IMG/VR virus record: IMGVR_UViG_3300029448_000026
Coordinates: 1-64,000 of that record
DNA length: 64,000 nt
Reading direction: 5' to 3' (one strand)
From: an uncultured virus (IMG/VR IMGVR_UViG_3300029448_000026)
Taxonomy: Duplodnaviria > Heunggongvirae > Uroviricota > Caudoviricetes
Positions 30,312 to 61,100 of the stretch are shown piece after piece (position 1 is the stretch's first letter; every line of letters begins with the position of its first letter). The notes below the pieces were generated by a model. It was not told the DNA's origin and made no database searches. It saw only the letters and a program-made list of their open reading frames with translations. Made by a program: the position numbers and the translations under genes.

Positions 30312-30749
30312 CTATATTGCTCTCGATACACCGCGAGGATCGGCTACTACTGCTTCGATAGAATCATCATTCATTAAACGATACTCTACACCTGCTACTT
30401 TGAATCGTGTACCTGTATTAGCACGAAACATTACATAATCACCTACCTTACACCAAGGCGTGGTAAAACGTTCTTTGTCTTTATAAGCTTCTTCACCCAT
30501 ATCAAGCACAACGCCTATAATAGACATTATATGCTCATTATGTTTATGCGAATCAGTTTTTAGTACTTTTGTACCATCAAAAGTTTCTCCAACTTCTGGC
30601 ATGGCTACTAACAGCCTGTATCCTACAGGTTTGGGTAATTGTAGTTCTAAGTCAGCATCGCTAAGTTGGGTTTTTGCCGTTGTAGTCATCATTTCTAAGT
30701 CGGCATTGTTAATTTTAACAGTCTCTATATTTGTTTCACTCATCTTCAT
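30312..30749 (-). CDS. groES: GroES/Cpn10-like co-chaperonin
   Basis: PVGYRLLV..VVLDMG..KVGDYVMF..G..EYRLMNDDSIEAVV. Confidence 0.8.
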   Translation of the reverse strand: MKMSETNIETVKINNADLEMMTTTAKTQLSDADLELQLPKPVGYRLLVAMPEVGETFDGTKVLKTDSHKHNEHIMSIIGVVLDMGEEAYKDKERFTTPWCKVGDYVMFRANTGTRFKVAGVEYRLMNDDSIEAVVADPRGVSRAI

Positions 30750-33610: not shown

Positions 33611-34757
33611 CGGTAACTTTCTCCTTTATATACCCAAAAGGGTAGTTTTCTATAATCAGTTCTGCGAGTTCGTTAGCAGTTAAAGTATGCCTTTTCATCA
33701 TGTCTACCATTTTATCACTATTTTCCAAAAAATTAGTTACATCAAACCCATATCGTTCTGATTTGTAATCATTAATTCTTTTAATTCTTTTATTTGCAGC
33801 GTCTATCTCTTCTTGAGTATTGTCGGGGTTACTCTCTTTTGTGTATACAGGAGAATCTAGGTAATGTCTTCCAAATCCAACTCGCATACTCGCACCTACA
33901 TGTCTATTAAAAATATCGTCTAATATTTGTTCTTCGGGGCTTTTTTCTATAGACTCTTCGGGGTTTTTTTCTATAGACCCAGTAGGAGAGGCTTTGGCTT
34001 CGTCTCTTTGCGCGACTAGTTCAGTCAACTTACTACTCCAGTTCCCTTTCCCAAGTCTTTTTTGTTCTGCATTTATTTCAGCTTGTATATCTTTTACAGT
34101 CCTGCTTACTTTCTTTTTTTCTTCAGGTTCAAGTATTGTTCTAGGTATTTTACCATACTTTTGATTACGCCCATAATGGTCATCCATTGTATGTATAGCA
34201 GTGTGAGCTAAATCAGAATCCCCAAGTCCACCTACAAATTTACCCATCATTTGATAATCATTAGCTAGTGAAGGTGGTATAACTCCAGCTCTTATAAGAT
34301 CTTTTGTTATAAATTCGCCTATATGACTTAATTCATGGAAAACGGTTCGATCTCTTCTTTCTGGATCATAACCTCCTTCCTCTAGGTCTTCCAAAGATCT
34401 TAACATTACTTGGTGGTAATTCCCTCCTGATGTATTATATGGAGAGCCTGCTGGTACAGCACTCCCAAAAGCAGTAGTATCAGGTTGAAACATAAGAGAA
34501 GCTAGTCCTCCTGGAACTTCTGATCTATACTTGTCCATGTAACGTGCGCCTAGTTCTACTTGTGGTTGTTCCATAGTTCTTTGCGCATTGTATATGTCAG
34601 CTAACAATTCTGTATCACCAAATTCCTCCATTAACTTTTTCTGTTTTTCACGGTCTAGAGGTGGCTGGGTCGTGCCAGGTTCTTTAATAGTATCATAACC
34701 CATTTCAGGGCTACCCATACCAAGTAAACCTAACAATTTTTCTAGAAAGTCCATCAA
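33600..34757 (-). CDS. Protein with HExxH zincin-like motif
   Basis: 385 aa, RTVFHELSH. Confidence 0.5.
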   Translation of the reverse strand: MMDFLEKLLGLLGMGSPEMGYDTIKEPGTTQPPLDREKQKKLMEEFGDTELLADIYNAQRTMEQPQVELGARYMDKYRSEVPGGLASLMFQPDTTAFGSAVPAGSPYNTSGGNYHQVMLRSLEDLEEGGYDPERRDRTVFHELSHIGEFITKDLIRAGVIPPSLANDYQMMGKFVGGLGDSDLAHTAIHTMDDHYGRNQKYGKIPRTILEPEEKKKVSRTVKDIQAEINAEQKRLGKGNWSSKLTELVAQRDEAKASPTGSIEKNPEESIEKSPEEQILDDIFNRHVGASMRVGFGRHYLDSPVYTKESNPDNTQEEIDAANKRIKRINDYKSERYGFDVTNFLENSDKMVDMMKRHTLTANELAELIIENYPFGYIKEKVTDGY

Positions 34758-38771: not shown

Positions 38772-39470
38772 ATGACACAACAAGTAAATACGACTACACC
38801 AACCGAGCATCAACTTCCTAACGGAGCATTGGCAGATCAAAAGGTCAATGCCGTAGATGATAACGTAGGTATAGTTAAAGAAGCTATTGGCTACGCTATC
38901 AAGATAGATGAAACTAAGGAAGAGGGTAAGCAAGCAAGAGGTATGCTTGAGGATATGTCGAACGTGTTTAAGGATGTTGGGATATCCGCCTTTCACTTCT
39001 GCACTCCTAAACTTGCCCATGTGGTCAAGCTGGAAGATGGTACATTCAAGATTACCGAGAATGTAAAGAACCCCCAGCATTTACCTGTGGAGGAGTTAGA
39101 GGTCAGAGGTGAGGGATGTACGGCATCACCTGCTGAGGCTATTGCTATCAGGCAAGCTTACTTTGATAGTTGTGATCCATCTGGGCTTATGACTGAGATA
39201 TTCAATACCCCACAGGATCAACGGAAGAATAAGCATAAGCTTCATGACCGACATATCTTTGATAGCTATAACAAGCAAAGAGATAAGAAGCTTGCCACAG
39301 TATTCAATGCTTTGAAGCCTAAGCAACCCCCAGAGAAAAAGACACCAAAGCAGAAAGTAATCATACATCTGGATAATGTTGCTAAAGCTTTGGAAAAATT
39401 GGATGCTGATACCATGGATATTGATAAGCAAATCCTAGCTTTAAAAGCACGGGTAATCAAACTAAAATAA
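38772..39470 (+). CDS. First early gene, hypothetical protein
   Basis: Start moved to ATG 38772 (GGAGGT RBS); 232 aa; followed by its own terminator. Confidence 0.7.
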   Translation: MTQQVNTTTPTEHQLPNGALADQKVNAVDDNVGIVKEAIGYAIKIDETKEEGKQARGMLEDMSNVFKDVGISAFHFCTPKLAHVVKLEDGTFKITENVKNPQHLPVEELEVRGEGCTASPAEAIAIRQAYFDSCDPSGLMTEIFNTPQDQRKNKHKLHDRHIFDSYNKQRDKKLATVFNALKPKQPPEKKTPKQKVIIHLDNVAKALEKLDADTMDIDKQILALKARVIKLK

Positions 39471-39476
39471 TATATG

Positions 39477-39503
39477 GGGCGACCTTCGGGTCGCCCTTTT
39501 TTT
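39477..39503 (+). terminator. Intrinsic terminator
   Basis: GGGCGACC-TTCG-GGTCGCCC followed by T7. Confidence 0.9.
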
Positions 39504-39717
39504 GTGCCTAAAGATACCAGTTCTCTCAGTAGCAGTGTGGCGTTTCGACTTAACACGTCTGGGTAGTAGACGTACCATGGCTGCCCGTCTATTAACACGT
39601 CACCACGTACATACCTTTGCCACCCTTGCCACCCAAATGGTAAAAGTTTTGAAAAACAGTTAGTCACACACTAACAAGTTTGAAGCCAGTTCTCATTGTA
39701 GCAGACCGTCTCAGTGT

Positions 39718-40051
39718 AATGTTCCATAATGTTACCATAATGTTCCATAATGTTCCCTTTTTTTTGGGCAAAAAGTAACATTTGATTTTAATTGCAAAAG
39801 GTATCACAAGGTGTCACACGATTGTATCTACTGCATAGAATTTATACTGTATATATATATATATATATAATGTTCCTTTTTTTAAAAAGTATTTAACAAC
39901 TATTCGACCCCCATCTCTTGCTATTCCATTTCAGTTAGTCATTCACTAACCGACCTTTAATTCCTTTCCGTTTGGAACATTGGAACATTCCTTTATTATC
40001 AATAACTTATTTGGAACATTATCAGGACACTATAAGACAATAGGGAACATT
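39718..40051. repeat. Iteron-like AATGTTCC repeats around a (TA)n tract; putative replication origin
   Basis: Five forward and five inverted copies (two are GTTAC variants); TA run at 39850-39869. Confidence 0.7.
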
Positions 40052-40118
40052 ACACTGTATGACGTCTTATGATATACTATGACACCAACAAGCCGCTTCT
40101 GTAGTTCGTTGACGTTGG

Positions 40119-40147
40119 TTGACACAGCAGTACACCTATGCTATACT
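40119..40147 (+). promoter_or_regulatory. Strong sigma70-type early promoter
   Basis: TTGACA - 17 nt - TATACT with extended -10 TG, 47 nt upstream of ATG 40195. Confidence 0.8.
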
Positions 40148-40194
40148 GTAAGGACAATCTAAAAGTATGTCTAGCAAACAAAGGAGAACACGTT

Positions 40195-41118
40195 ATGACA
40201 GAAGAAACAAACACAGAGAAAGACAAAACAGTTAGTGACATACTAACTGACGAGAATGATATATCTATCTCCACTAGTGCAATGTTGGTAGAGGTCAATA
40301 TATCTAAGTGGACTGGTCGCAAGTTTGATAAGTCAGCAAGCGAGTACGTAGAGACCGCAAACAAAGCACACGTTGGTATGGCTAACGTACATAAGAAGTT
40401 ACTTGGTGACTGTCCTCAACTCAGTGCCATACATAAACACGTTGGTAACAGTTACAACATACATCGCAGTAGTACATTGCCATGGTCTGACAGTGGACTA
40501 CGTCTTGTGCCAACTGTTCACTATTTTAAATACAATCAGCAAATGACAGAACTCAGAAATCACTTCTTTCAACTGTGTGACGATTTCTATGGTGTCTATG
40601 ACTTTGCAATCCAAGAAGCCAAGGTCACACTTGGCGATCTGTTTCAAGCAGACAACTACCCCTCCATTGACACAATCAAATCTAAATTTGCGTGGCGAAT
40701 GAGTTACACCGAAGTACCTCAAGGTGACTTTCGTGTAGACATTGGCAACGAGGGTTTGCGTCAAGTCAAAGAACAGTTCAAGCGGTTCTCAGATACCCAA
40801 CTCAAACGAGCGATGGGTGACGCATGGCAAAGAACGCATGACGTGTTATCACGTATGTCTGACCGCCTAGATTATTCAGGGAGCGAAGACAAGAAAGTAT
40901 TTCGTGATACGATAGTCACTAACGTCACTGACCTTGTCGATCTACTTGATGGGTTCAACCTCACCAACGATCCTGCAATGAAGACAATGCAGAAGAAACT
41001 AGAAAAGACTTTCCGTGGCATCACACCAGATGCACTACGTGAAGACGATATCTTACGGCTCGACACTAAGAAGGCCGTAGATGAAGCCATCAAGGCATTA
41101 CCTAGTCTTGATATATAG
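40195..41118 (+). CDS. Early protein (DUF3150-like)
   Basis: Start moved to ATG 40195 (AAGGAG). SAMLVEVNISKWTGRK..TLPWSDSGLRLVP..LGDLF..DNYP; typical neighbour of the AAA/vWA pair. Confidence 0.6.
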   Translation: MTEETNTEKDKTVSDILTDENDISISTSAMLVEVNISKWTGRKFDKSASEYVETANKAHVGMANVHKKLLGDCPQLSAIHKHVGNSYNIHRSSTLPWSDSGLRLVPTVHYFKYNQQMTELRNHFFQLCDDFYGVYDFAIQEAKVTLGDLFQADNYPSIDTIKSKFAWRMSYTEVPQGDFRVDIGNEGLRQVKEQFKRFSDTQLKRAMGDAWQRTHDVLSRMSDRLDYSGSEDKKVFRDTIVTNVTDLVDLLDGFNLTNDPAMKTMQKKLEKTFRGITPDALREDDILRLDTKKAVDEAIKALPSLDI

Positions 41119-41157
41119 AAACTGTTAGTCACACACTAACTAAAAGGAGAACATATT

Positions 41158-41472
41158 ATGGTACAGAAAAGAAAAAGCAGATTGATGGGCTTTGAAGAGT
41201 TCATGCAACTTTCAGAAAAAACAGAAAAGGAGAACGCGGAGAAGGCAGAGTTAGGGAAATTCCTAGAAGAGCATAACAGATTACACGCACTTCATACAGA
41301 TAAGGAGAAGGATTTTCTTATTAATGAGCAACTATTAAAAACAGAAAAGGAGAACGCGGAGAAGGCAGAGTTCTTTCAACATCTAAACAATGTGATGGCT
41401 AACAAGTTACTCAAGCCAAGTATTATAATGGAATATGTCAATCAATATAACATCAGTATGGGAGAAGAATAA
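41158..41472 (+). CDS. Hypothetical protein with internal duplication
   Basis: 104 aa, KTEKENAEKAE occurs twice; AAGGAG RBS. Confidence 0.6.
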   Translation: MVQKRKSRLMGFEEFMQLSEKTEKENAEKAELGKFLEEHNRLHALHTDKEKDFLINEQLLKTEKENAEKAEFFQHLNNVMANKLLKPSIIMEYVNQYNISMGEE

Positions 41473-45240: not shown

Positions 45241-45737
45241 TGGGTTACCGTAGCGATGTAGTCATTGCACACTCTTTCATTTCTAAGAGCCACATGGAAG
45301 AGGTGCTTACCGTACTGACATTGGATAAGAGGTTTGCTGAGTACAAATTGGCAGACCACGTCTACACCAGCGAGGAGTACATACCACATGAAGACAAGTA
45401 TATGTTTAACCTTGTGGTGGTTGGCGAACAATGGAAGTGGTATGAGGAAAGCCAATTTGGTGGGTATGAGGATGTAGCTTGCATTAATTCCTTACTTACA
45501 ATCTGCCAAGATTTTAACACAGAAAGGGGTGTACCATACGCATACAAGTTTCTACGTATTGGTGAAGACGTGACCGATGAAGAGATGCGTGAGAAGGCAA
45601 GTGATTGTCAACATGGGGAATGGCTTGGAGAGATGCAAGATCGGGTCATGTTTATAAACAGAACAATAGAAAACGACTTCGCTAACTTACAATCAGTTAG
45701 TGGGTCACTAACCGAAAAGGAGAATGACAATGAGTGA
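45240..45737 (+). CDS. Conserved phage hypothetical protein
   Basis: MGYRSDV..WKWY..FLRIGED motif set. Confidence 0.65.
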   Translation: MGYRSDVVIAHSFISKSHMEEVLTVLTLDKRFAEYKLADHVYTSEEYIPHEDKYMFNLVVVGEQWKWYEESQFGGYEDVACINSLLTICQDFNTERGVPYAYKFLRIGEDVTDEEMREKASDCQHGEWLGEMQDRVMFINRTIENDFANLQSVSGSLTEKENDNE

Positions 45738-47042: not shown

Positions 47043-47074
47043 GATGCCAGTTCCACCACTATTAGGGAGAAACG

Positions 47075-51540: not shown

Positions 51541-51551
51541 AGGAGAACGAA

Positions 51552-53084
51552 ATGCAAATAGTGGACAACGAGAGTGTCTTATTACGCCTGCGTAATCCAG
51601 CAAGGGTTATGAAACATTTAGATACTGCCAAACATAGTGGTGCTAATGGGGTCACTGTAGATTGGAATCTAAGAGAAACTACAATATTAAATGCGTTAAA
51701 CATTTACGTGCCATCACCCATATATGGACAGTACGCGTGGCCTGGGAAGGTTCCGTTTGAACACCAAAAGAAAACAGCTTCTTTTCTTACATTACATAGA
51801 AAAGCATTTTGCTTTAACGAACAAGGTACAGGTAAAACAGCAAGTGCCATATGGGCATCAGACTATCTGATAGACTTGGGGATGGTAAGACGTGTGTTAG
51901 TTATATGCCCACTCTCGATAATGGATAGCGCATGGCGCACTGACTTGTTTACATTTGCACCTCATAGAAAAGTGGCTATAGCTTATGGTTCAGCGAACAA
52001 AAGAAAAGAAATTATAAAGTCAGACGCTGAGTTTGTTATTATAAACTATGATGGAGTATCCATTGTAGTAGATGAAATAGCTAAAGGCGATTTTGATTTA
52101 ATCATTGTAGACGAAGCAACACATTACAAGAACGCGCAAACTACAAGATGGAAGAAACTAAAGAAGATTATGAAAGATGATACATGGTTGTGGATGATGA
52201 CAGGCACACCCGCGTCTCAAAGTCCAGTGGATGCCTATGGCCTAGCTAAGTTGGTAAACCCTTCTGGTGTACCCATGTTTTTTAGTACGTTCAAAGACAA
52301 AGTTCTGTATAGAGTTTCACAGTTTACATGGAAGCCAAGAGATAATGCTATAAATACAGTATACTATGCTTTACAACCTGCAATACGTTATAAGAAGGAA
52401 CAGTGTTTAGATTTACCAGACATGGTATATACAAAAAGAAAGGTGGAACTAACACCGCAACAAAGTAAATATTACAAGAAACTAAAAGACCAGATGACTA
52501 TGGAGGTTGTAGGAGAGGAGATCACCGCAGTCAATGCAGCTGTACATCTAAACAAGTTACTACAGATATCAGCAGGGGCAGTATATACTGACAGTGGTCA
52601 AGCACTTGAGTTTGATATAAAGAATAGATACAAAGTTCTAAAAGAAGTAATAGATGAATCTAGTCAAAAGGTATTAGTGTTTGTCCCTTTCAAACATTCT
52701 ATACGAATACTAACAAACGCTTTAAACGAAGATAATATATCTACAGAAATAATAGATGGGTCTGTACCTGTCCATAAAAGAACTGACATATTCAAGAAGT
52801 TTCAGACTACTGCTGACCCACAGGTACTCGTGATACAACCTCAAGCAGCTGCACATGGTGTCACGTTAACACGCGCTAATACAATAGTGTGGTGGGCGCC
52901 TGTGAGTAGCTTAGAAACATACTCTCAAGCCAATGCACGTATACACAGGAGTGGGCAGACCCATAAATGTACAGTGGTGCAGTTGCAAGGATCTGATGCT
53001 GAGAAACATGTTTACAGACTTCTTGATAACAGAATACACATACACACAAAAATTATAGATTTATACAAAGAAATACTTGACTAA
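51552..53084 (+). CDS. SNF2-family helicase
   Basis: EQGTGKT, ICPLS, VDEAT, TGTP and QANARIHRSGQ. Confidence 0.9.
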   Translation: MQIVDNESVLLRLRNPARVMKHLDTAKHSGANGVTVDWNLRETTILNALNIYVPSPIYGQYAWPGKVPFEHQKKTASFLTLHRKAFCFNEQGTGKTASAIWASDYLIDLGMVRRVLVICPLSIMDSAWRTDLFTFAPHRKVAIAYGSANKRKEIIKSDAEFVIINYDGVSIVVDEIAKGDFDLIIVDEATHYKNAQTTRWKKLKKIMKDDTWLWMMTGTPASQSPVDAYGLAKLVNPSGVPMFFSTFKDKVLYRVSQFTWKPRDNAINTVYYALQPAIRYKKEQCLDLPDMVYTKRKVELTPQQSKYYKKLKDQMTMEVVGEEITAVNAAVHLNKLLQISAGAVYTDSGQALEFDIKNRYKVLKEVIDESSQKVLVFVPFKHSIRILTNALNEDNISTEIIDGSVPVHKRTDIFKKFQTTADPQVLVIQPQAAAHGVTLTRANTIVWWAPVSSLETYSQANARIHRSGQTHKCTVVQLQGSDAEKHVYRLLDNRIHIHTKIIDLYKEILD

Positions 53085-53761: not shown

Positions 53762-53776
53762 TAGTTGGAGAACGAC

Positions 53777-54460
53777 ATGAGCGAGAGCTACAAAATAGAG
53801 AACGTTGAGGCTTTATGGCCTAAGATAAATACTACCTATAGATTTGACAGTACCGAAAACAGATCTGTACCTTGCAGTGCTTTGGATGATAATTCAGAGT
53901 ACAGCTTACAATTTAAAATGGATGAAGCGACTGCTCAAGCTTTATATAAGCCAATGAGTTCAGCCTATAAAGCAAAAAAGCAGAAAGGTTGGGAGGACAA
54001 GTTACCTTTACCTTTTGAAAAGGATGAAGAAGGTATGTACATTGGTAAGGCACGTCTAAAGGGTGCATACGGTGCAGACCCCACTAGAAAGCCATCACAA
54101 TATGATGCGAAAGGTAATAGACTTGATTCCGATTTTAAACTTACCACTGGCAGTAAGATAAATGTGCTTGTTGGTTTTTATCCTTGGAATATGGGGGGAA
54201 GATCTGGCGTATCGTTAAGATTAAAAGCAGTGCAAGTTGTTAAATATATACCTATGGAGGAGTCTTCTCCTTTTGATGAGGTAGAGGGATTCAATTCTTC
54301 TTCTGAAATGGATCAAGTATTTTCGGATACTACGACTGAGAAAGAAGAGGTCATTGAAGAACCAAAGAAACTAACTCCGAAACCTGATAAAAAAGAAGTA
54401 AAGACACCCCAACAGGCAACGAGTGAGTTAAGTGATATTGTTGATAGTTGGGATGACTAG
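53777..54460 (+). CDS. ssb: Single-stranded DNA-binding protein (T7 gp2.5-like)
   Basis: GSKINV..GVSLRLKAVQVVKY and acidic tail ending DSWDD; start moved to ATG 53777 with GGAG RBS. Confidence 0.7.
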   Translation: MSESYKIENVEALWPKINTTYRFDSTENRSVPCSALDDNSEYSLQFKMDEATAQALYKPMSSAYKAKKQKGWEDKLPLPFEKDEEGMYIGKARLKGAYGADPTRKPSQYDAKGNRLDSDFKLTTGSKINVLVGFYPWNMGGRSGVSLRLKAVQVVKYIPMEESSPFDEVEGFNSSSEMDQVFSDTTTEKEEVIEEPKKLTPKPDKKEVKTPQQATSELSDIVDSWDD

Positions 54461-54475
54461 TAAGCAATAGAACTT

Positions 54476-54535
54476 CACTGTGGCTAGGGCATTGCGCCCC
54501 GAAAAGAGTATAATGCAAATACTCCTGCCACGGTG
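54476..54535 (+). ncRNA. Candidate structured cis-element (three-way junction) upstream of primase-helicase
   Basis: Stems CACTGTGGC/GCCACGGTG, GGGC/GCCC and GAGTAT/ATACTC; complementary loops. Confidence 0.45.
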
Positions 54536-54555
54536 TCTTTATTAGGGGTGGTATT

Positions 54556-57342
54556 ATGGAAACAAAACAATTTTTACAGAGCGTAGTAGCTTCAGAAGGT
54601 TACTACTGCGTATGGGGTTTTAAAGGTGACCGACTCGTAACCAAGTTTTACGACTCCATTGATAAGGTCATAGATACAGCTACAAAACTAGACAGCAATG
54701 GATACAATGCTTTCTTTGCATTGGCGACATTTGAAAAGTCTGGCTCTAGAAAAGTAGAGAATGCCAAACAATATAAGTCTTTCTTTCTTGATTTAGATTG
54801 TGGCGATAAGAAAGATTACCCAACTCAACAGGATGCTTTGACAGCCCTCCGTGGGTTTTGTAAGAAGAATACTTTACCTAAACCTGTTATAGTGAGTTCT
54901 GGTAATGGGGTACATTGTTACTGGCCTTTGGAAACTCCTATTATATATAGTGATTGGTTTCCTGTGGCTGAAAGGTTAAAGGCTCTTTGCGCAGAACACA
55001 ATCTACTAGCAGACCCTGCTGTTACATCGGACGGTGCTAGGGTACTAAGAGTACCAGAAACACATAACCACAAAGGTGATACACCTATAAGAGTTCACGC
55101 AATAAGTAGTAATATAACAACCATACCTTTCCACGAATTTTCAGAGTTAATTGGCGAGATAATACCTGCACCTAAAACTCTTCCTATGAACCAAGTTGAT
55201 AGTAAAGTTGCTGATAGTACAGAAGCATGGTTTGTGGACATAATAAGAAAGACAAAAGAAGGTAGAGGGTGTGAACAGATAAAGAATATCATTATAAATC
55301 AAAAAGATATAAGCGAACCTTTATGGAGAGGGGGGCTATCTATAACAAAGTTCTGTGTTGATTCTGAAGAAGCGTCTAAAATAATATCCGAAAAGCACTT
55401 AGAATACTCAGAAGAAAAAACACAAGAGAAATTAGACCTTATAAAGGGGCCTTATTGGTGTACTACATTTGACGAACATAACCCAGATGTATGTCCGAAT
55501 TGTCCTAACTGGAAGAAGGTAAAAAGCCCGATTGTTCTGGGGAATAGAATTATAGAATCAGAAGAGGACATAAAGAAGGCACTGGCTATGGATCTGCCAG
55601 AAGATGAAGAGATGGATTATAAAGTACCATCAAAATACCCTTCGCCCTACTTTAGAGGATCTAATGGCGGTGTATACATGAGGTATAAAAACGCTGATGG
55701 TGACCCAGAAGATAAGTTAATATATCACAACGATCTATATGTTGTGAATCGTATTACAGATGCAGAAACTGGAGAAGGTGTCGTGATGCGTCTACACTTA
55801 CCCAGAGATGGGGTAAGAGAATTTACAGTTCCTTTAACTGCTGTAACATCAAAAGAAGATTTTAGAAAACAACTGTCCATGCAAGGTGTGGCAGTTCCAA
55901 AAATGGATGACCTTATGAAATACACTACAACATGGGTAAACGAGTTACAGGTGCAAGAAATGGCAGATATAGCTCATAAACAGTTTGGTTGGACTAATGA
56001 TGAATGTGGTTCATTCATACTAGGTAACAAAGAGATATCAAAAGATAGTGTCAAGTTTAATGCACCATCTTTGCAAACAGCTAGTTTCTTTCCTTATTTT
56101 GAACCTAAAGGTGAGCTTGAAAAGTGGAAAGAGATGATAAATTTTTACGATAGAGATGATTTTGAACTACACCAATTTGTTGTCGCAACTTCTTTTGGTT
56201 CCCCTTTGATGCAATTTTTGCCCATACACTGCGCTACTTTACATCTGCATGGAGATACAGGCATAGGTAAAACAACTGTCCAGATGGCCGCAGTGTCGGT
56301 TTGGGGCAATCCATCACAACTTATATGTTCAGAAAATGATACAGTTAATACAAAGATGAATAGGGGCGAGGTGTACCGTAACTTACCGTTATATATTGAC
56401 GAGTTAACAAATGAGAAGCCTAAAGACCTAAGTGATCTAGCCTATAGACTTACTGGTGGTAGGCAAAGAAATAGAATGTCTGCTGGTTCTAACGTGGAAA
56501 GATATCGGGGTGAACCTTGGAGACTATTAGCAGTAACTAGTGCTAATGCAAGTATTGTAGAAATGATAAGTATGATAAAGATAATGCCGAAAGCAGAAGC
56601 GCAAAGGATATTGGAATGTAAGACAAAAGAGATGAGGTTTGATACAAAAGAGGAGACAGATGCGTTTAGTTTACTCCTCACCCATAACTATGGTCACGCG
56701 GGTAGGATATATCTTAAATCTATACTGAATGATATAGAAGGCGTTAAGAAATTATTAAAAGAAGTCCAGATTAAGATAGATACCACAGCAGGTCTTACAG
56801 CGAAAAATAGATTTTGGTCTGCTTTAACTGCATGTTCATTGACAGGTATTATATTGGCTAAGAAAGCAGGGCTTGTAAACTATGATGTAAAGAACCTTTT
56901 TAAATGGACTGTGGGTCAGTTGAAACGTAACTTACATATGTCTAATGACATGTCTGCCTCTGTAGAAGAAGTTATAAATGATTACATACATGAACACTGG
57001 AGTAATGTCCTTTGGATAAAAAGTACAGATGATCTCAGGGGTAAGGAAGGTGATGAGATATCTACACTTGTTGTACCAGAAGCTGTACCCAGAGGTAAGT
57101 TAGTAGCAAGGTATGAAACCGATTTAAAGAAAGCTTATCTCCTACCTAAACCGCTAAAGAAGTGGTGTGTAGAACAACAGATAAATTATACTTCTTTTAT
57201 TCAAGATTTAAAACTTAAACTAAATGGCAAGAAAGGTAAGGTGAGACTTAGCAAAGGTACGCACATGAACTTACCGCCTACTCATGTTATTATAATAGAT
57301 TGCACTATACAAAATGAGACAGGAAGTACTGAAGAACTTTGA
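54556..57342 (+). CDS. Primase-helicase (AEP-like + DUF927-like + P-loop)
   Basis: FLDLD, SSGNGVHCYW, RVLRVP, Cys cluster, Walker A GDTGIGKT, IDE. Confidence 0.85.
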   Translation: METKQFLQSVVASEGYYCVWGFKGDRLVTKFYDSIDKVIDTATKLDSNGYNAFFALATFEKSGSRKVENAKQYKSFFLDLDCGDKKDYPTQQDALTALRGFCKKNTLPKPVIVSSGNGVHCYWPLETPIIYSDWFPVAERLKALCAEHNLLADPAVTSDGARVLRVPETHNHKGDTPIRVHAISSNITTIPFHEFSELIGEIIPAPKTLPMNQVDSKVADSTEAWFVDIIRKTKEGRGCEQIKNIIINQKDISEPLWRGGLSITKFCVDSEEASKIISEKHLEYSEEKTQEKLDLIKGPYWCTTFDEHNPDVCPNCPNWKKVKSPIVLGNRIIESEEDIKKALAMDLPEDEEMDYKVPSKYPSPYFRGSNGGVYMRYKNADGDPEDKLIYHNDLYVVNRITDAETGEGVVMRLHLPRDGVREFTVPLTAVTSKEDFRKQLSMQGVAVPKMDDLMKYTTTWVNELQVQEMADIAHKQFGWTNDECGSFILGNKEISKDSVKFNAPSLQTASFFPYFEPKGELEKWKEMINFYDRDDFELHQFVVATSFGSPLMQFLPIHCATLHLHGDTGIGKTTVQMAAVSVWGNPSQLICSENDTVNTKMNRGEVYRNLPLYIDELTNEKPKDLSDLAYRLTGGRQRNRMSAGSNVERYRGEPWRLLAVTSANASIVEMISMIKIMPKAEAQRILECKTKEMRFDTKEETDAFSLLLTHNYGHAGRIYLKSILNDIEGVKKLLKEVQIKIDTTAGLTAKNRFWSALTACSLTGIILAKKAGLVNYDVKNLFKWTVGQLKRNLHMSNDMSASVEEVINDYIHEHWSNVLWIKSTDDLRGKEGDEISTLVVPEAVPRGKLVARYETDLKKAYLLPKPLKKWCVEQQINYTSFIQDLKLKLNGKKGKVRLSKGTHMNLPPTHVIIIDCTIQNETGSTEEL

Positions 57343-57541
57343 TTTAGACCCAGACCATGTTAGAATTATTGTAAATTGGGGCAAGATGGTCGTAAATGCA
57401 TCGGTGTTTGTACCTTGTGTAAACACTCAAAAGGCCACACAACAAGCAAAAACTATAGCTAAAGAGAAAAGCTGGGAGTTCAAAATACATGTTCGTATAG
57501 AGGATAACAAACTTGGAATCCGTATATGGAGGTTATTGTGA
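57314..57541 (+). CDS. Hypothetical protein
   Basis: 75 aa, SVFVPC..GIRIWR. Confidence 0.6.
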   Translation: MRQEVLKNFDLDPDHVRIIVNWGKMVVNASVFVPCVNTQKATQQAKTIAKEKSWEFKIHVRIEDNKLGIRIWRLL

Positions 57542-57635: not shown

Positions 57636-58034
57636 ATGGTTATCGAGAGTGCATTAATTTGTTTAGCTATGAACATCTACCATGAGGCTAGAAGTGAACC
57701 CGTAGATGGTAGGGTTGCAGTTGCAGAAGTTACTTTGAATAGGGTTGAATCAAAATACTACCCAGATACTGTATGTTCTGTAGTCTACCAGAAAGGTAAA
57801 AAAGCATGTGCCTTTAGTTGGACTTGCGATGGAATTTCAGACACGCCATACGAAGAAAAAGAGTTTAACAGCGCAAAAAGATTGGCAAGAATGATAATGT
57901 TAAACAGAGAAAGCGTACACGAAGTCGGCAAAAATGCAACACATTACCATAATAAACGTGTAAAACCCTACTGGTTAACAGACGTAGAGCTAATAAAACA
58001 GGTAGGTAACCATATTTTTTACAAAAGAAAGTAG
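57636..58034 (+). CDS. Cell wall hydrolase (SleB/Hydrolase_2-like)
   Basis: CLAMNIYHEARSE..VTLNRV..YPDTVC..FSW..ATHYH..GNHIFY. Confidence 0.85.
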   Translation: MVIESALICLAMNIYHEARSEPVDGRVAVAEVTLNRVESKYYPDTVCSVVYQKGKKACAFSWTCDGISDTPYEEKEFNSAKRLARMIMLNRESVHEVGKNATHYHNKRVKPYWLTDVELIKQVGNHIFYKRK

Positions 58035-58099
58035 TCAAACTATATATTGGTGTGGTACATTGTGCGTGGCAGTATCCTCGCACTGTCGTTCTCCCTCCT

Positions 58100-58130
58100 A
58101 AACTCCCCCTTTAATTAGGGGGGGTTTTTT
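58100..58130. terminator. Terminator between the convergent arms
   Basis: AAACTCCCCCT-TTAATT-AGGGGGGGTTT followed by a T tract. Confidence 0.75.
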
Positions 58131-61100
58131 ATTTAATATTCAGAGGGGGAAACAACCCAGATTCTTCTAGTATGTCAAAAGTAGAAAGCATTTCATTAAT
58201 TGCATCTCTATTCTTTTCTGTTAGCAGTACACCAAACTTCATTTTTTGAGATGTTTCTACGAATTTTTTACGTGATCTAAGTAACGTTTTCATATCTATA
58301 ACATTGAATGGGTGTTTAAGATTAAAATCCATCATGGCTGACTCTGTTTCTATCCGCATAAGTATATCCCCATTTAATATAGAGTTATTCCACATACGTA
58401 GTAGCTTTGACCTTTTCGCATTTATAGCTGTATCTAACTGTTTTGAAACTCTAGCCTTTGTCTGTGCTTGTGTTAACCTGTTAAACCCAAAACCAAAACC
58501 AGTAATAGATTTTTCAAAGAGGNNNNNNNNNNTTCGTCTTCTGTGTACCTAAATGCTTTACGTGCATTTCTGATTGAGGCTGGTAACATATTTTCTATAC
58601 CTCTACCCATGTTACCATCTTCTGACATGATTTCTTTGAACCCATTATATAACTGCCTACCTACACTACCCGCTGGACCAAGAAGCAATTCGTAAGTAAA
58701 CACTTCTGGTGACCATTCTTTTTGGTAAGGGTTGGATCTAAATAGTAAATTAGATAGTCCAATACGTGTAGACACGTCAGCACCTGACATTGCAGTAACG
58801 GCCCCTTTGTACCACCCTTCACCTACGTACATTCTCACAAGGGTATCTGCGTCTAGTTCATCGTCATCTAAGAACAGGTCAGCTATCATGGTAACTATGC
58901 CATACATAGGTAGCCCTCCGACCCCTGCTAAAAACAAGGAGGAACCTACCATACCTACAAGTTGCCTAAAAGCTATCCTTTGTTCTTCGGGATTAGTATA
59001 AGCATTCTTGACAAGTGATCTGGCTGTCTTAAACATATTGTAGTACATCATGATGCCAAAGCCCTTATACATCATGGCAACTCTACCTACACCTTGTTGT
59101 GCTATAGGTGGAGCAGTATCTAACAATGCACCGCCATTTATAAGTTGTGTATTATAAACGGCAAATTCGGCAGCACGTTGTTGCTTCTGTGTAGGTGTTA
59201 ACGCTTTCTCNNNNNNNNNNCTGGCGTAGGTTTATTTGTAAGCCTGTCTAACTCAAGATTATATGAACCCATCAAAGCTATTTGCCTGTTGAACCTCTCG
59301 ACTTGATGAAACATACCTGCTGAAATTATTTGGAATCTATCAAGGATACCAGTTCCTCGCTTAGTACCCTCTATACCAAGAGTATCAAAGAATATTGATC
59401 TGTTTAGCTGTCCTTGTTGCTCTGCAACCTCGACTAGCTTTTGCATGGTTTTTAATTTTTCTATAAAACCTTTTGAGTACTTGCCATCTTTTAGTACGCT
59501 ATCTTTTATCTGGTAATTACCCTGCGCATCTAATTGGAAATAATTATCAATAGATGGGGCTGCAGCTACATCTTTGTATATACTACCCTTAACACGTTTA
59601 GACAAACGTATCTTATTACTGAAACCACTATTTGTGTAGAAACGAGCTGCGTCTATAAACGCTTTACTTGATTTTAAATAACCGAACCTACCGCCTAGCA
59701 TCGGAGCCATAACAAGTGGTATTTGTGATAGGTTAACAATAGCAGAGGAAGCGTTCAACCCCAGTGTAAATGTAAAAGCAAACCTGTTACCAAGTATAGC
59801 TAATGCATCTGGAGGGGGGTTCATAGCAAACCTTCCTCGCTCTATCAGGCTTTCTATGATAGCTCCTTTTGTGCTATCACGGTCTACTTTCATATCTAAA
59901 AGCCTGTCTATTTCTTTTCTAAACAAGTCTGCGTATCTTATCTTTTCTACTTGCCTAGCGAGATCATAACCTTTTGTTTTTAGACCGTATATTATGTCTT
60001 GGTTGTACCCCAGAGTTCCTTCTCTTTTAGCGAAAGACTTGGCAAAGCTAGATTCTGGCAGAGCTTCTATAAATAACTGTAGCAAAGAGTCTCTTGTCTC
60101 TTGTGGTATCTTCGTCTTTGAACCATCTAATACTTTTAACATTTCTGCCATAAAAGATGTAGATGGTGGATTTTTGTATGCTCTATTGTATTGTGATGGT
60201 TTCTCAAAAGACTCTATATTATTAACTCCGTACCCACTTTGTAATCTTTTTACTGCTCTTCTTCTTTGATTTATACTTTCAAACGCCATTACGACACGTT
60301 CTTCTTTGTTAAACTTTTCGTCAAACACATCGAATGCAAGCCAATACTGGCCTTTTCTAACTAGAGGTATGTAGGGTTCAAGTTTTGCCTTCTCAAATAA
60401 CTTACTGAATATTTGACTTTTTAACTTGTTTTTTGTTCCTTGGTCTATAGGACTACCGTCTTCTCCTGTAAGATTATTTATTTTACCTTCAATAGTTTTC
60501 TTTAGTTTCTCAAATAAACTTTTGTATTCAGCTACAACAAGTTTAAAAGCTTGTTTACTATCTGGGTCGAGAGTTTCGTAATCTTTTTTCACTATCTCCC
60601 AATTTTGAAACTCTTCGGTATTTTGTCCGTATTTATCAATAGCTTGTTTTCTATCCAATGTAGGATCTACCTGTAGCCTAGTAGCGTCTGTGGACATTTC
60701 GTTAAACTTATCCATTTTAGCTTTAGGCACTAATGATTTTATTGATTCTATAGTACCTTCTACAGATTGTTGCGCCTTGTTAATATCACCCTGTTGCCCC
60801 CTAAGTAAGGTATCCATAGTATATGCTTCATCTATACCTGCATTACCTGCAAAATCACTTACTGCATTAGAAGGTAGAAATCTAAAAAATATATCCCGCC
60901 CTTTTTTAGACATGAATGACAGTATACCCATAGACTCTTCTATGTACTCTTTAGTAGCTGTTTGACTAGGGCTAGGAAAATTAGATGATACTTCTTGTAT
61001 GTTTTTCATAAACTTTCTTATAGGGGTAAAGTTTAATCTTTTACCTTCTGCGACTTCTTGAGAGGGAGCAATAAGATTTTCAAGTATTTCCATTGATTCA

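What the first reader, a model, noticed from the sequence alone, without database searches (positions are those of the whole stretch)
58018..58130. Candidate small RNA antisense to the phage's own GGAGAACGA ribosome-binding sites
Seen: the + strand before the terminal terminator reads TGTCGTTCTCC (58084-58094). This is the exact 11-nt reverse complement of the ssb RBS through the A of its start codon (GGAGAACGACA, 53767-53777). It also pairs with the 47761 gene RBS (GGAGAACGATA, 11 nt with one G-U), the SNF2 RBS (GGAGAACGA, 51542-51550) and GGAGAAC at 40183 and 41146. It is followed by another anti-SD tract (CTCCT). Upstream is a promoter-like TTTACA-N17-TATATA (58018-58046), and downstream is an intrinsic terminator. 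Inference: a ~75-80 nt sRNA, or a 3'-UTR-derived RNA, could silence early and replication genes carrying this extended RBS and act as an early-to-late switch.
Basis: partly seen in the sequence, partly recalled or inferred. Interest (0 to 1): 0.7.

Follow-up and report, generated by a model that had tools for sequence, protein, structure and literature searches.

The report
Phage small RNA mirroring ribosome sites
At the end of its replication genes, this uncultured phage and many relatives keep a tiny gene for a roughly 65-base RNA whose exposed middle mirrors the ribosome-landing sites of several of the phage's own early genes and changes together with them between lineages, so it probably turns their translation down, although the RNA itself has not been seen.

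Summary
The sequence match is real, and relatives make it far more than chance. 58051-58132 is a promoter-to-terminator unit: extended -10 (TG-G-TACATT), start G58068, a 6-bp hairpin, an unpaired tract GUUCUCCCUCCU and an intrinsic terminator; about 65 nt. 232 of 266 related loci carry the promoter signature, with a purine at +1 in 61 of 62 primase clusters. The tract changes between lineages, and the ribosome-binding sites (RBS) of the SNF2, gam-like and ssb genes change with it: permutation p=5e-5 for each gene, own tract favoured in 19 of 22 tree-neighbour pairs against 12 of 22 for control genes. The antisense ORF is not conserved (11-72 aa). Corrections: the proposed TTTACA/TATATA promoter is not the conserved one, and TGTC lies in the stem. 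Best reading: a trans-acting sRNA that represses translation of a small set of the phage's own early and replication genes (0.68). No transcript is shown, the early-to-late timing is untested, a G-U wobble test was inconclusive, and two clades lack the unit. No Rfam family matches; the closest known are P1/P7 c4 RNA and mycobacteriophage start-associated sequences. This scan noted similar RNAs before on other phage DNA.

The parts
58051..58061 (+). Extended -10 promoter element TGTG-G-TACATT (TRTGnTAnnnT); weak -35-like TAGTCA at 58032-58037, 18 nt upstream
   Evidence: TG.TA invariant in alignment A1; 232 of 266 loci; kept in 14 of 15 hydrolase-bearing loci where it is not a stop codon (the 15th is cut by its contig end)
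58068..58132 (+). Predicted small RNA, about 63-65 nt; +1 = G58068
   Evidence: The base 7 nt after the -10 hexamer is G in 92 and A in 6 of 99 distinct variants; fold -25.3 kcal/mol; median length in relatives 61 nt, n=199. Transcript not observed.
58068..58087 (+). 5' hairpin GGCAGU / ACUGUC with loop AUCCUCGC (GACAG/CUGUC in most relatives; absent in some lineages)
   Evidence: 83% of cells paired against 28-43% for slid registers, with G-U variants on this strand
58084..58099 (+). Anti-RBS tract; 58088-58099 (GUUCUCCCUCCU) unpaired, 58084-58087 inside the stem
   Evidence: Unpaired probability 0.97-1.00 for 58088-58099; covaries with RBSs
58100..58132 (+). Intrinsic terminator (11-bp hairpin plus U tract) at the convergence of the two gene arms
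53767..53777 (+). Best predicted target: RBS of the ssb gene (start 53777), 11-nt perfect complement, duplex -19.4 kcal/mol
   Evidence: ssb identity from phrog_112 and 47% to Roseobacter phage ssb
47751..47761 (+). Predicted target: RBS of the 114-aa gene of unknown function (47761), -17.7
51542..51550 (+). Predicted target: RBS of the SNF2 helicase gene (51552), -16.6
45719..45729 (+).
47065..47074 (+). Possible target: RBS GGGAGAAACG of a 50-aa ORF (47075), bulged duplex -17.3
40183..40189 (+). Weaker target: GGAGAAC in the RBS of gene 40195, -12.4
41146..41152 (+). Weaker target: GGAGAAC in the RBS of gene 41158, -11.7
57314..57541 (+). Conserved 75-aa ORF of unknown function; in most relatives its TGA stop overlaps the sRNA promoter
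   Evidence: 218 of 219 loci where it ends in TGA continue with TA; no Pfam family or PDB fold at threshold
57636..58034 (+). Cell wall hydrolase gene (Hydrolase_2), lying between the 75-aa ORF and the sRNA gene in this clade only
57865..58083 (-). 72-aa antisense ORF, rejected as a gene
   Evidence: 11-72 aa in 14 loci with the identical tract; no Pfam or PHROG hit; overlaps the hydrolase gene

Best explanation
A stand-alone phage sRNA gene. Host sigma-70 RNA polymerase starts at G58068 from an extended -10 promoter and stops at the terminator (inferred from sequence signatures). The ~65-nt RNA presents an unpaired GUUCUCC(C) tract that nucleates on the GGAGAAC RBSs of a handful of the phage's own early and replication genes (ssb, SNF2, 47761, 45730; more weakly 40195, 41158, 47075), then opens its 5' stem to extend pairing toward the start codon and blocks 30S loading (predicted). 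The effect would be a translational brake on that gene set. The promoter resembles the phage's own early sigma-70 promoter, so the RNA most simply builds up with time and genome copy number and damps these proteins as replication proceeds (inferred, least certain). Shown here: conservation, promoter/+1 signature, structure, covariation. Not shown: transcript, repression, timing, need for Hfq.
For: Promoter: 232 of 266 loci have TG[ATG]TA; T at hexamer position 6 in 73 of 99 variants; purine at +1 in 98 of 99, while the six bases in between vary; purine at +1 in 61 of 62 primase clusters; retained where not a stop codon. Covariation: own against other tract/RBS permutation p=5e-5 (floor of 20,000) for SNF2 (n=26 clusters), gam-like (30) and ssb (23); lineage matrix own-best 6 of 7, 6 of 8, 3 of 8 against 1 of 8, 0 of 6, 1 of 8 for primase, polymerase, HTH; disjoint tree-neighbour pairs 19 of 22 against 12 of 22 for controls; derived tracts pair better with their own RBSs than ancestral tracts do in 14 of 17. 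Examples: L237 CATGTCGTTTCTCC with SNF2 GGAGAAACGAC|ATG (14 nt, one extra base on both sides); L316 12 nt; L036 11 nt; L317 GGTCTCC with GGAGACC; L219/L220/L222 flanks changed on both sides. In the window GGAGAAC is in 5 of 22 early and 0 of 44 late RBSs. Where the unit is lost the RBSs share a shorter word (4.9 nt, n=9, against 6.2 nt, n=56).
Against: No transcript evidence of any kind. The G-U wobble test does not separate RNA pairing from a shared motif: pairing resumes after 18 of 43 G-U against 11 of 50 A-C mismatches, and transitions confound it. Primase, a control, shows a weak own-tract signal (run p=0.011, energy p=0.11), as does HTH energy (p=0.044). Early-arm enrichment is significant in the window and G006 but not in G002, G003 or G005, and early RBSs pair better with non-cognate tracts too. 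Own tract is not better in 3 of 17 derived lineages (two of lineage C, L197), and ssb fits in only 3 of 8 lineages. Some loci keep the ancestral tract with poorly matching RBSs (L102, L109, L259). The unit is absent from two clades, so it is dispensable; the loss comparison rests on those two clades only. Tree pairs share branches and are not fully independent. Start codons came from my own simple caller.
Confidence: 0.68

Rival explanations
1. The GGAGAAC-type word is a protein-binding motif (a DNA operator, or an RNA site for a phage translational repressor), and the tract is one more copy in inverted orientation or a decoy on late read-through RNA.
For: A lineage-specific motif would also 'covary'; the wobble test is inconclusive; the phage has an HTH gene; Pope et al. 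left open whether start-associated sequences bind RNA or protein (PMC3203893, passages).
Against: The inverted copy always lies between a promoter signature and a terminator of the + strand, unpaired. G-U pairs in both hairpins and the U tract point to the + strand as the RNA. On the - strand the hairpin precedes the motif.
Confidence: 0.1
2. The tract acts as the 3' end of the early operon mRNA, pairing in cis or released by processing, rather than from its own promoter.
For: The terminator also ends the early arm; the -35 is weak and the consensus scan lists no promoter here.
Against: Fixed 12-nt spacing from the -10 TA to a conserved purine, T at hexamer position 6 and TRTG; the promoter stays with the unit in the hydrolase-bearing clade and is lost after the 75-aa ORF there. 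Both origins can coexist, and the targets would be the same.
Confidence: 0.1
3. It is a general anti-Shine-Dalgarno RNA aimed at host mRNAs (host shut-off), and the match to phage genes is incidental.
For: The tract and often the loop carry CUCC/CCUCC; other phage sRNAs act on host genes (PMC12197685, Table 1).
Against: It does not explain why the phage's own RBS spacers follow every seed change; a phage attacking host RBSs should move its own away from the seed. The host is unknown, so host targets were not tested.
Confidence: 0.06
4. Pairing activates or protects the targets (opens local structure or shields from RNases) instead of repressing them.
For: A phage sRNA that activates a host target is reported (PreS, as summarised in PMC12197685).
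Against: The predicted duplexes cover the SD core and spacer up to the start codon, the geometry of repression (established sRNA knowledge).
Confidence: 0.04
5. The tract is simply the RBS of minus-strand ORF 57865-58083.
For: GGAGAACGACA-GTG is a well-spaced RBS and start in the window.
Against: The ORF is 11-72 aa in 14 loci with the same tract; among 90 variants scored, 33 have no start and 5 reach 50 aa, in mixed frames; no family hit.
Confidence: 0.02

Closest known systems
c4 antisense RNA of phages P1/P7
   Same: Phage-encoded, about 77 nt, acts in trans on the phage's own mRNA and partly occludes an RBS; specificity changes with paired substitutions (PMC5320573 passages; PMC12197685 Table 1).
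   Different: c4 has three stem-loops, is cut from a precursor by RNase P, uses two loops (a', b') on the antirepressor operon and serves immunity. This RNA has one small hairpin, a single-stranded seed and its own terminator, several dispersed replication-gene targets, and no Rfam c4 match.
Start-associated sequences (SAS) of Cluster K mycobacteriophages
   Same: A non-palindromic extended RBS word, confined to the non-structural arm, in one orientation, with a single opposite-strand copy not tied to a gene start; function unknown, RNA or protein partner proposed (PMC3203893 passages).
   Different: SAS is a 13-bp GGGATAGGAGCCC in 11-19 copies in actinophages; here a 7-11 nt word in 5-7 copies. 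The passages read describe no sRNA for SAS, and I did not examine SAS genomes.
Cuckoo RNAs and other anti-SD sRNAs of Alphaproteobacteria
   Same: Short CU-rich anti-SD sequences shown in unpaired regions; many relatives have CCUCC in the hairpin loop.
   Different: Cuckoo RNAs have 2-4 hairpins, each with CCUCCUCCC (PMC4615179 abstract), and are chromosomal. Here there is one hairpin, no such nonamer, and a seed that tracks phage RBSs.
P22 sar, lambda OOP, PAK_P4as15
   Same: Phage RNAs that repress a phage gene by pairing (PMC12197685).
   Different: Each has a single listed target gene, OOP and PAK_P4as15 being cis-encoded; this unit lies 4-18 kb from several targets.
HTVC023P / CRP-901-like phages (host genome context)
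   Same: Major capsid 65% to HTVC023P, 57-58% to CRP-901/902, 70% to MinM2.
   Different: Their replication genes were not among the primase hits; model R1 found no convincing homolog of the RNA in 5 such records (best E 0.002).

Membership tests
Trans-acting base-pairing bacterial sRNA (class) | Own promoter and intrinsic terminator around a 50-150 nt unit without an ORF | tested here: met
   Sequence signatures only; median 61 nt
Trans-acting base-pairing bacterial sRNA (class) | Unpaired seed complementary to targets encoded elsewhere, with compensatory change | tested here: met
Trans-acting base-pairing bacterial sRNA (class) | Transcript detected and target regulation shown | not testable with these tools
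   No RNA holder listed; needs experiments
Trans-acting base-pairing bacterial sRNA (class) | Hfq or ProQ binding | not testable with these tools
   Host unknown; a terminator with U tract is present
c4 antisense RNA (P1/P7) | Rfam covariance model match | tested here: not met
   No hit at gathering score or at E<=10; none in 10 related loci
c4 antisense RNA (P1/P7) | Three stem-loops with a' and b' loops, RNase P-processed | tested here: not met
   Fold has one 6-bp hairpin plus terminator; c4 features from PMC5320573
c4 antisense RNA (P1/P7) | Target is an antirepressor operon in a temperate phage | tested here: not met
   Predicted targets are ssb, SNF2 and unknown genes; no integrase or antirepressor family among the ORFs scanned (not every ORF was scanned)
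Cuckoo RNA | 2-4 hairpins, each with CCUCCUCCC in the loop | tested here: not met
   Loop AUCCUCGC, single hairpin; definition from abstract
Start-associated sequences (Cluster K) | Consensus GGGATAGGAGCCC | tested here: not met
   The word here is GGAGAACGA
Start-associated sequences (Cluster K) | Extended RBS word confined to the non-structural arm, with one reverse copy | tested here: met
   5 of 22 early against 0 of 44 late RBSs; GGAGAACGAC has one copy on each strand, the - strand copy being the tract

The most novel reading that the evidence does not exclude
Phages without their own RNA polymerase can tag a chosen set of early genes with a private RBS extension and control the whole set with one small anti-tag RNA, tag and RNA evolving together like an address and its key. 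This would be a widespread translational timer in lytic phages. It could explain the start-associated sequences left open since 2011, whose lone reverse copy would be the sRNA gene, and an analogous anti-RBS hairpin after the capsid gene of the cultured phages CRP-901/902 would make it testable now.
Probability: 0.4. Interest if true: 0.87.

Novelty: new variant of a known kind. Interest (0 to 1): 0.72.

Why it matters
Of the phage sRNAs in a 2025 review table (PMC12197685), those aimed at phage genes are nearly all listed with a single target gene; none is listed as pairing with the RBSs of several dispersed replication genes of its own phage. Seed-target covariation at this depth (primases down to about 40% identity) is rarely visible for sRNAs, and it gives ready-made orthogonal seed/RBS pairs for testing. 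It suggests how an RNA-polymerase-less phage could time its replication proteins, and offers a testable idea for the start-associated sequences of mycobacteriophages.

Tried and rejected
Rfam: no match for the element at gathering score or above it at E<=10. RNA evidence: no RNA holder listed; the four runs laid were contigs and only show that the DNA is present. Host: no primase relative in GTDB genomes; one 7.7-kb contig titled Parvibaculum MAG carries the 75-aa ORF and a short variant of the unit, which may be a misbinned phage, so the host is left open. Cultured relatives: the 75-aa ORF has no match among 50,697 phage records; the distant primase hits Rollin and RHph_TM27A show no such unit. 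Wobble test inconclusive. Whole-arm enrichment not significant in 3 of 5 unit-bearing genomes. Pattern scan: 68 stretches; 39 of the 64 new loci were in the primase/75-aa ORF context, and the other 25 looked like chance matches and were not used. My terminator detector missed real units: 42 loci were called 'no' but only 11 also lack the promoter signature, one of them cut short; one search used the 200 loci with both signals. The first antisense-ORF test was mis-anchored and was redone. The treekit tree did not finish; FastTree with midpoint root was used instead, so 'ancestral' is tentative. The 75-aa ORF as an RNA-binding partner: good model (pLDDT 87), no PDB match, weak DUF7303 lead; it persists where the RNA gene is lost, so I do not link them.

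Full report
Setting. The window is a 64.1-kb virus record rated complete. A + strand arm (38.7-58.0 kb) carries AAA ATPase, DUF2201, Holliday junction resolvase, DUF6378, DNA polymerase A, PD-(D/E)XK nuclease, SNF2 helicase, an HTH, ssb, a DUF927 primase, a 75-aa ORF and a cell wall hydrolase. The - strand arm is structural. The capsid is closest to MinM2 (70%), HTVC023P (65%) and CRP-901/902 (57-58%). The host is unknown; 'probably marine' is my inference from these relatives and from the names of related contigs. The finding lies where the two arms converge.

Observation. Every quoted sequence is at its coordinates. The 11-mer occurs twice exactly, against 0 in 100 shuffles, and five times with one mismatch, against 0.35; all four other sites are RBSs of + strand genes. 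The pattern was picked after the fact, so the real test is in relatives.

Relatives. I pooled 302 sequences: the window, 80 primase loci (the best 80 of 189), 64 new pattern loci, and loci found with the 75-aa ORF (the best 80 of at least 565 viral and of at least 515 metagenome matches, so close relatives are favoured). In 266 the end of the 75-aa ORF could be placed.

Promoter. 232 of 266 loci have TG[ATG]TA at or just after the last gene. Among 99 distinct variants, hexamer position 6 is T in 73, and the base 7 nt further on is G in 92 and A in 6, while the bases between vary. The two bases before TG are T/C and purine, giving TRTG. In most loci the TG-A is the stop codon of the 75-aa ORF; 218 of 219 TGA-ending loci continue with TA. 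In the window's clade a hydrolase gene intervenes, and the element persists outside coding sequence as TGTG-N-TAnnnT (14 of 15 loci). This is the signature of an extended -10 promoter and start site (established knowledge of sigma-70 promoters). It places +1 at G58068. The phage's early region has a near-consensus TTGACA-17-TATACT with TG before gene 40195, so it uses this promoter type.

RNA. 58068-58132 folds into a 6-bp hairpin, 12 unpaired bases (58088-58099) and the terminator. The hairpin is mostly GACAG/CUGUC, with G-U and a few double changes: 83% of cells paired against 28-43% in slid registers (24 sequences, structure chosen by me). Some lineages have no such stem. No Rfam family matches.

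Covariation. The tract reads GTTCTCC across deep branches and is altered in several lineages. The RBSs of the SNF2, 'gam-like' (53134 orthologs; weak Pfam hit below cut-off, a PHROG labelled minor head protein) and ssb genes follow it. Examples: TCTCTTTCTC with GAGAAAGAGA; ACTACTCC with GAGTAGT and GGAGGGTAGT; TATTTTCTCTC with GAGAGAAAATA; CATGTCGTTTCTCC with GGAGAAACGAC|ATG; GGTCTCC with GGAGACC. With one locus per cluster, own pairs beat other pairs for each of the three genes (p=5e-5, the permutation floor). Polymerase shows nothing; primase and HTH show weak signals in one of two measures. In 22 disjoint nearest-neighbour pairs with different seeds, own pairing is favoured in 19 (mean -5.2 kcal/mol) against 12 for control genes (-0.8); the three misses are close pairs with near-identical tracts. 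These pairs share branches, so the p-values are optimistic.

Results against. ssb fits its own tract best in only 3 of 8 lineages. 3 of 17 derived tracts are no better than ancestral ones. Some loci keep the tract with weak RBS matches. In the window the gam-like, primase and polymerase RBSs are not matched, so the target set shifts between lineages. Early-arm enrichment holds in the window (6 of 22 against 1 of 44, p=0.004) and G006 (5 of 14 against 2 of 41) but not in G002, G003 or G005 (G002 was fetched for 60,000 of 62,058 bases). The wobble test cannot separate pairing from a shared motif. Two clades have lost the unit: one has abutting genes, the other a bare terminator. Model R1 and a pattern scan find no copy elsewhere in G001 (60,000 of 60,546 bases searched) or G004. 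Their RBSs share shorter words, but this is only two events.

Antisense ORF. It is 11 to 72 aa long in 14 loci with the identical tract and absent or short in most others, so it is not the reason for the tract.

Mechanism. Shown: the unit, its signatures and the covariation. Predicted: nucleation at the open GUUCUCC, opening of the stem and duplexes of -16 to -19 kcal/mol over SD and spacer of ssb, 45730, 47761, 47075 and SNF2. Inferred: repression of translation. Least certain: purpose. A sigma-70 promoter would fire early, so build-up with time and copy number is the simplest timer; an early-to-late switch, superinfection exclusion or dosage tuning cannot be told apart here.

Comparison. It works like P1/P7 c4 (trans, RBS occlusion of the phage's own mRNA) but fails c4's structure, processing and target features. 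It resembles the start-associated sequences of Cluster K mycobacteriophages, which sit at RBSs of non-structural genes and have one unexplained reverse copy. Papers seen: PMC12197685 (passages and Table 1); PMC5320573 (passages); PMC3203893 (passages); PMC4615179 (abstract and outline); PMC10149686 (passages; no occurrence of 'small RNA', 'non-coding' or 'ribosome binding'). Ten searches listed no paper describing this RNA or a multi-target anti-RBS RNA in such phages, judged from titles and abstract starts. The library lacks most subscription journals, and I did not read the review's Supplementary Table S1 (38 sRNAs without function) or motif-discovery supplements, which could bear on novelty. 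Earlier notes of this scan describe similar RNAs in other phage genomes; they are unchecked, and none was found by place or sequence for this genome.

A cultured analog. In Roseobacter phages CRP-901 and CRP-902 a 7-bp hairpin between the capsid stop and its terminator has the loop TTCTCTCTC or TTCTCCTCTCT. In CRP-901, 8 RBSs give runs of 7 or more bases with this region, 7 of them in the non-structural part; GAGAGAGAG occurs 8 times, partly overlapping, at 5 places in the first 22 kb, against 0.19 expected. CRP-902 RBSs AGAGAGGAGA match its own loop for 10 nt. It is not homologous, it is low in complexity and I followed it only this far.

Verdict. A real, conserved candidate sRNA with unusually clear comparative support for pairing to the phage's own RBSs; a new variant of trans-acting antisense control; function untested.

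Noticed in passing
window 54477-54548 (+): Rfam int-alpA RNA match (41.8 bits, cut-off 35.8) in the primase leader. A similar two-hairpin multibranch fold precedes the primase in G002, G004 and G005, though no Rfam hit was found in 10 related loci. It may give the primase its own control.
   Followed up: partly
L347:1200-1285 (CRP-902) and CRP-901 record about 34660-34715, - strand: Hairpin after the capsid stop whose loop is antisense to AG-rich RBSs of non-structural genes, differing between the two phages in step with their RBSs. These are cultured phages, so it can be tested.
   Followed up: partly
L329:1500-1590 (CRP-901 52510-52591, - strand): Weak R1 hit (E 0.002): a -10-like TAATTA, a GACAG start at the same spacing and a terminator; few RBS matches. 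Possibly another small RNA.
   Followed up: partly
L197:7220-7325 (also L260, L267, L288): A variant unit whose tract does not match the SNF2, gam-like or ssb RBSs but has an 8-nt match to the primase RBS in L197; possible target switch.
   Followed up: partly
L219, L222, L321: Minimal variants in which the tract starts at +1 with no 5' stem and matches the gam-like RBS for 11-12 nt.
   Followed up: partly
window 41218-41251 and 41338-41371 (approximate): A direct repeat of about 34 nt, 120 nt apart, inside ORF 41158-41472; each copy holds GGAGAACG with no start codon after it.
   Followed up: no
window 39470-40195: Long intergenic region with repeated ATGTTCC/GGAACATT words, a TA run, a terminator at 39476 and a near-consensus sigma-70 promoter; a candidate origin or control region.
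   Followed up: no
window 30312-30743 (-): GroES/Cpn10-family gene in the structural arm.
   Followed up: no
window 57314-57541 (+): Highly conserved 75-aa protein after the primase (at least 565 viral matches), confident alpha/beta model, no family or fold match.
   Followed up: partly
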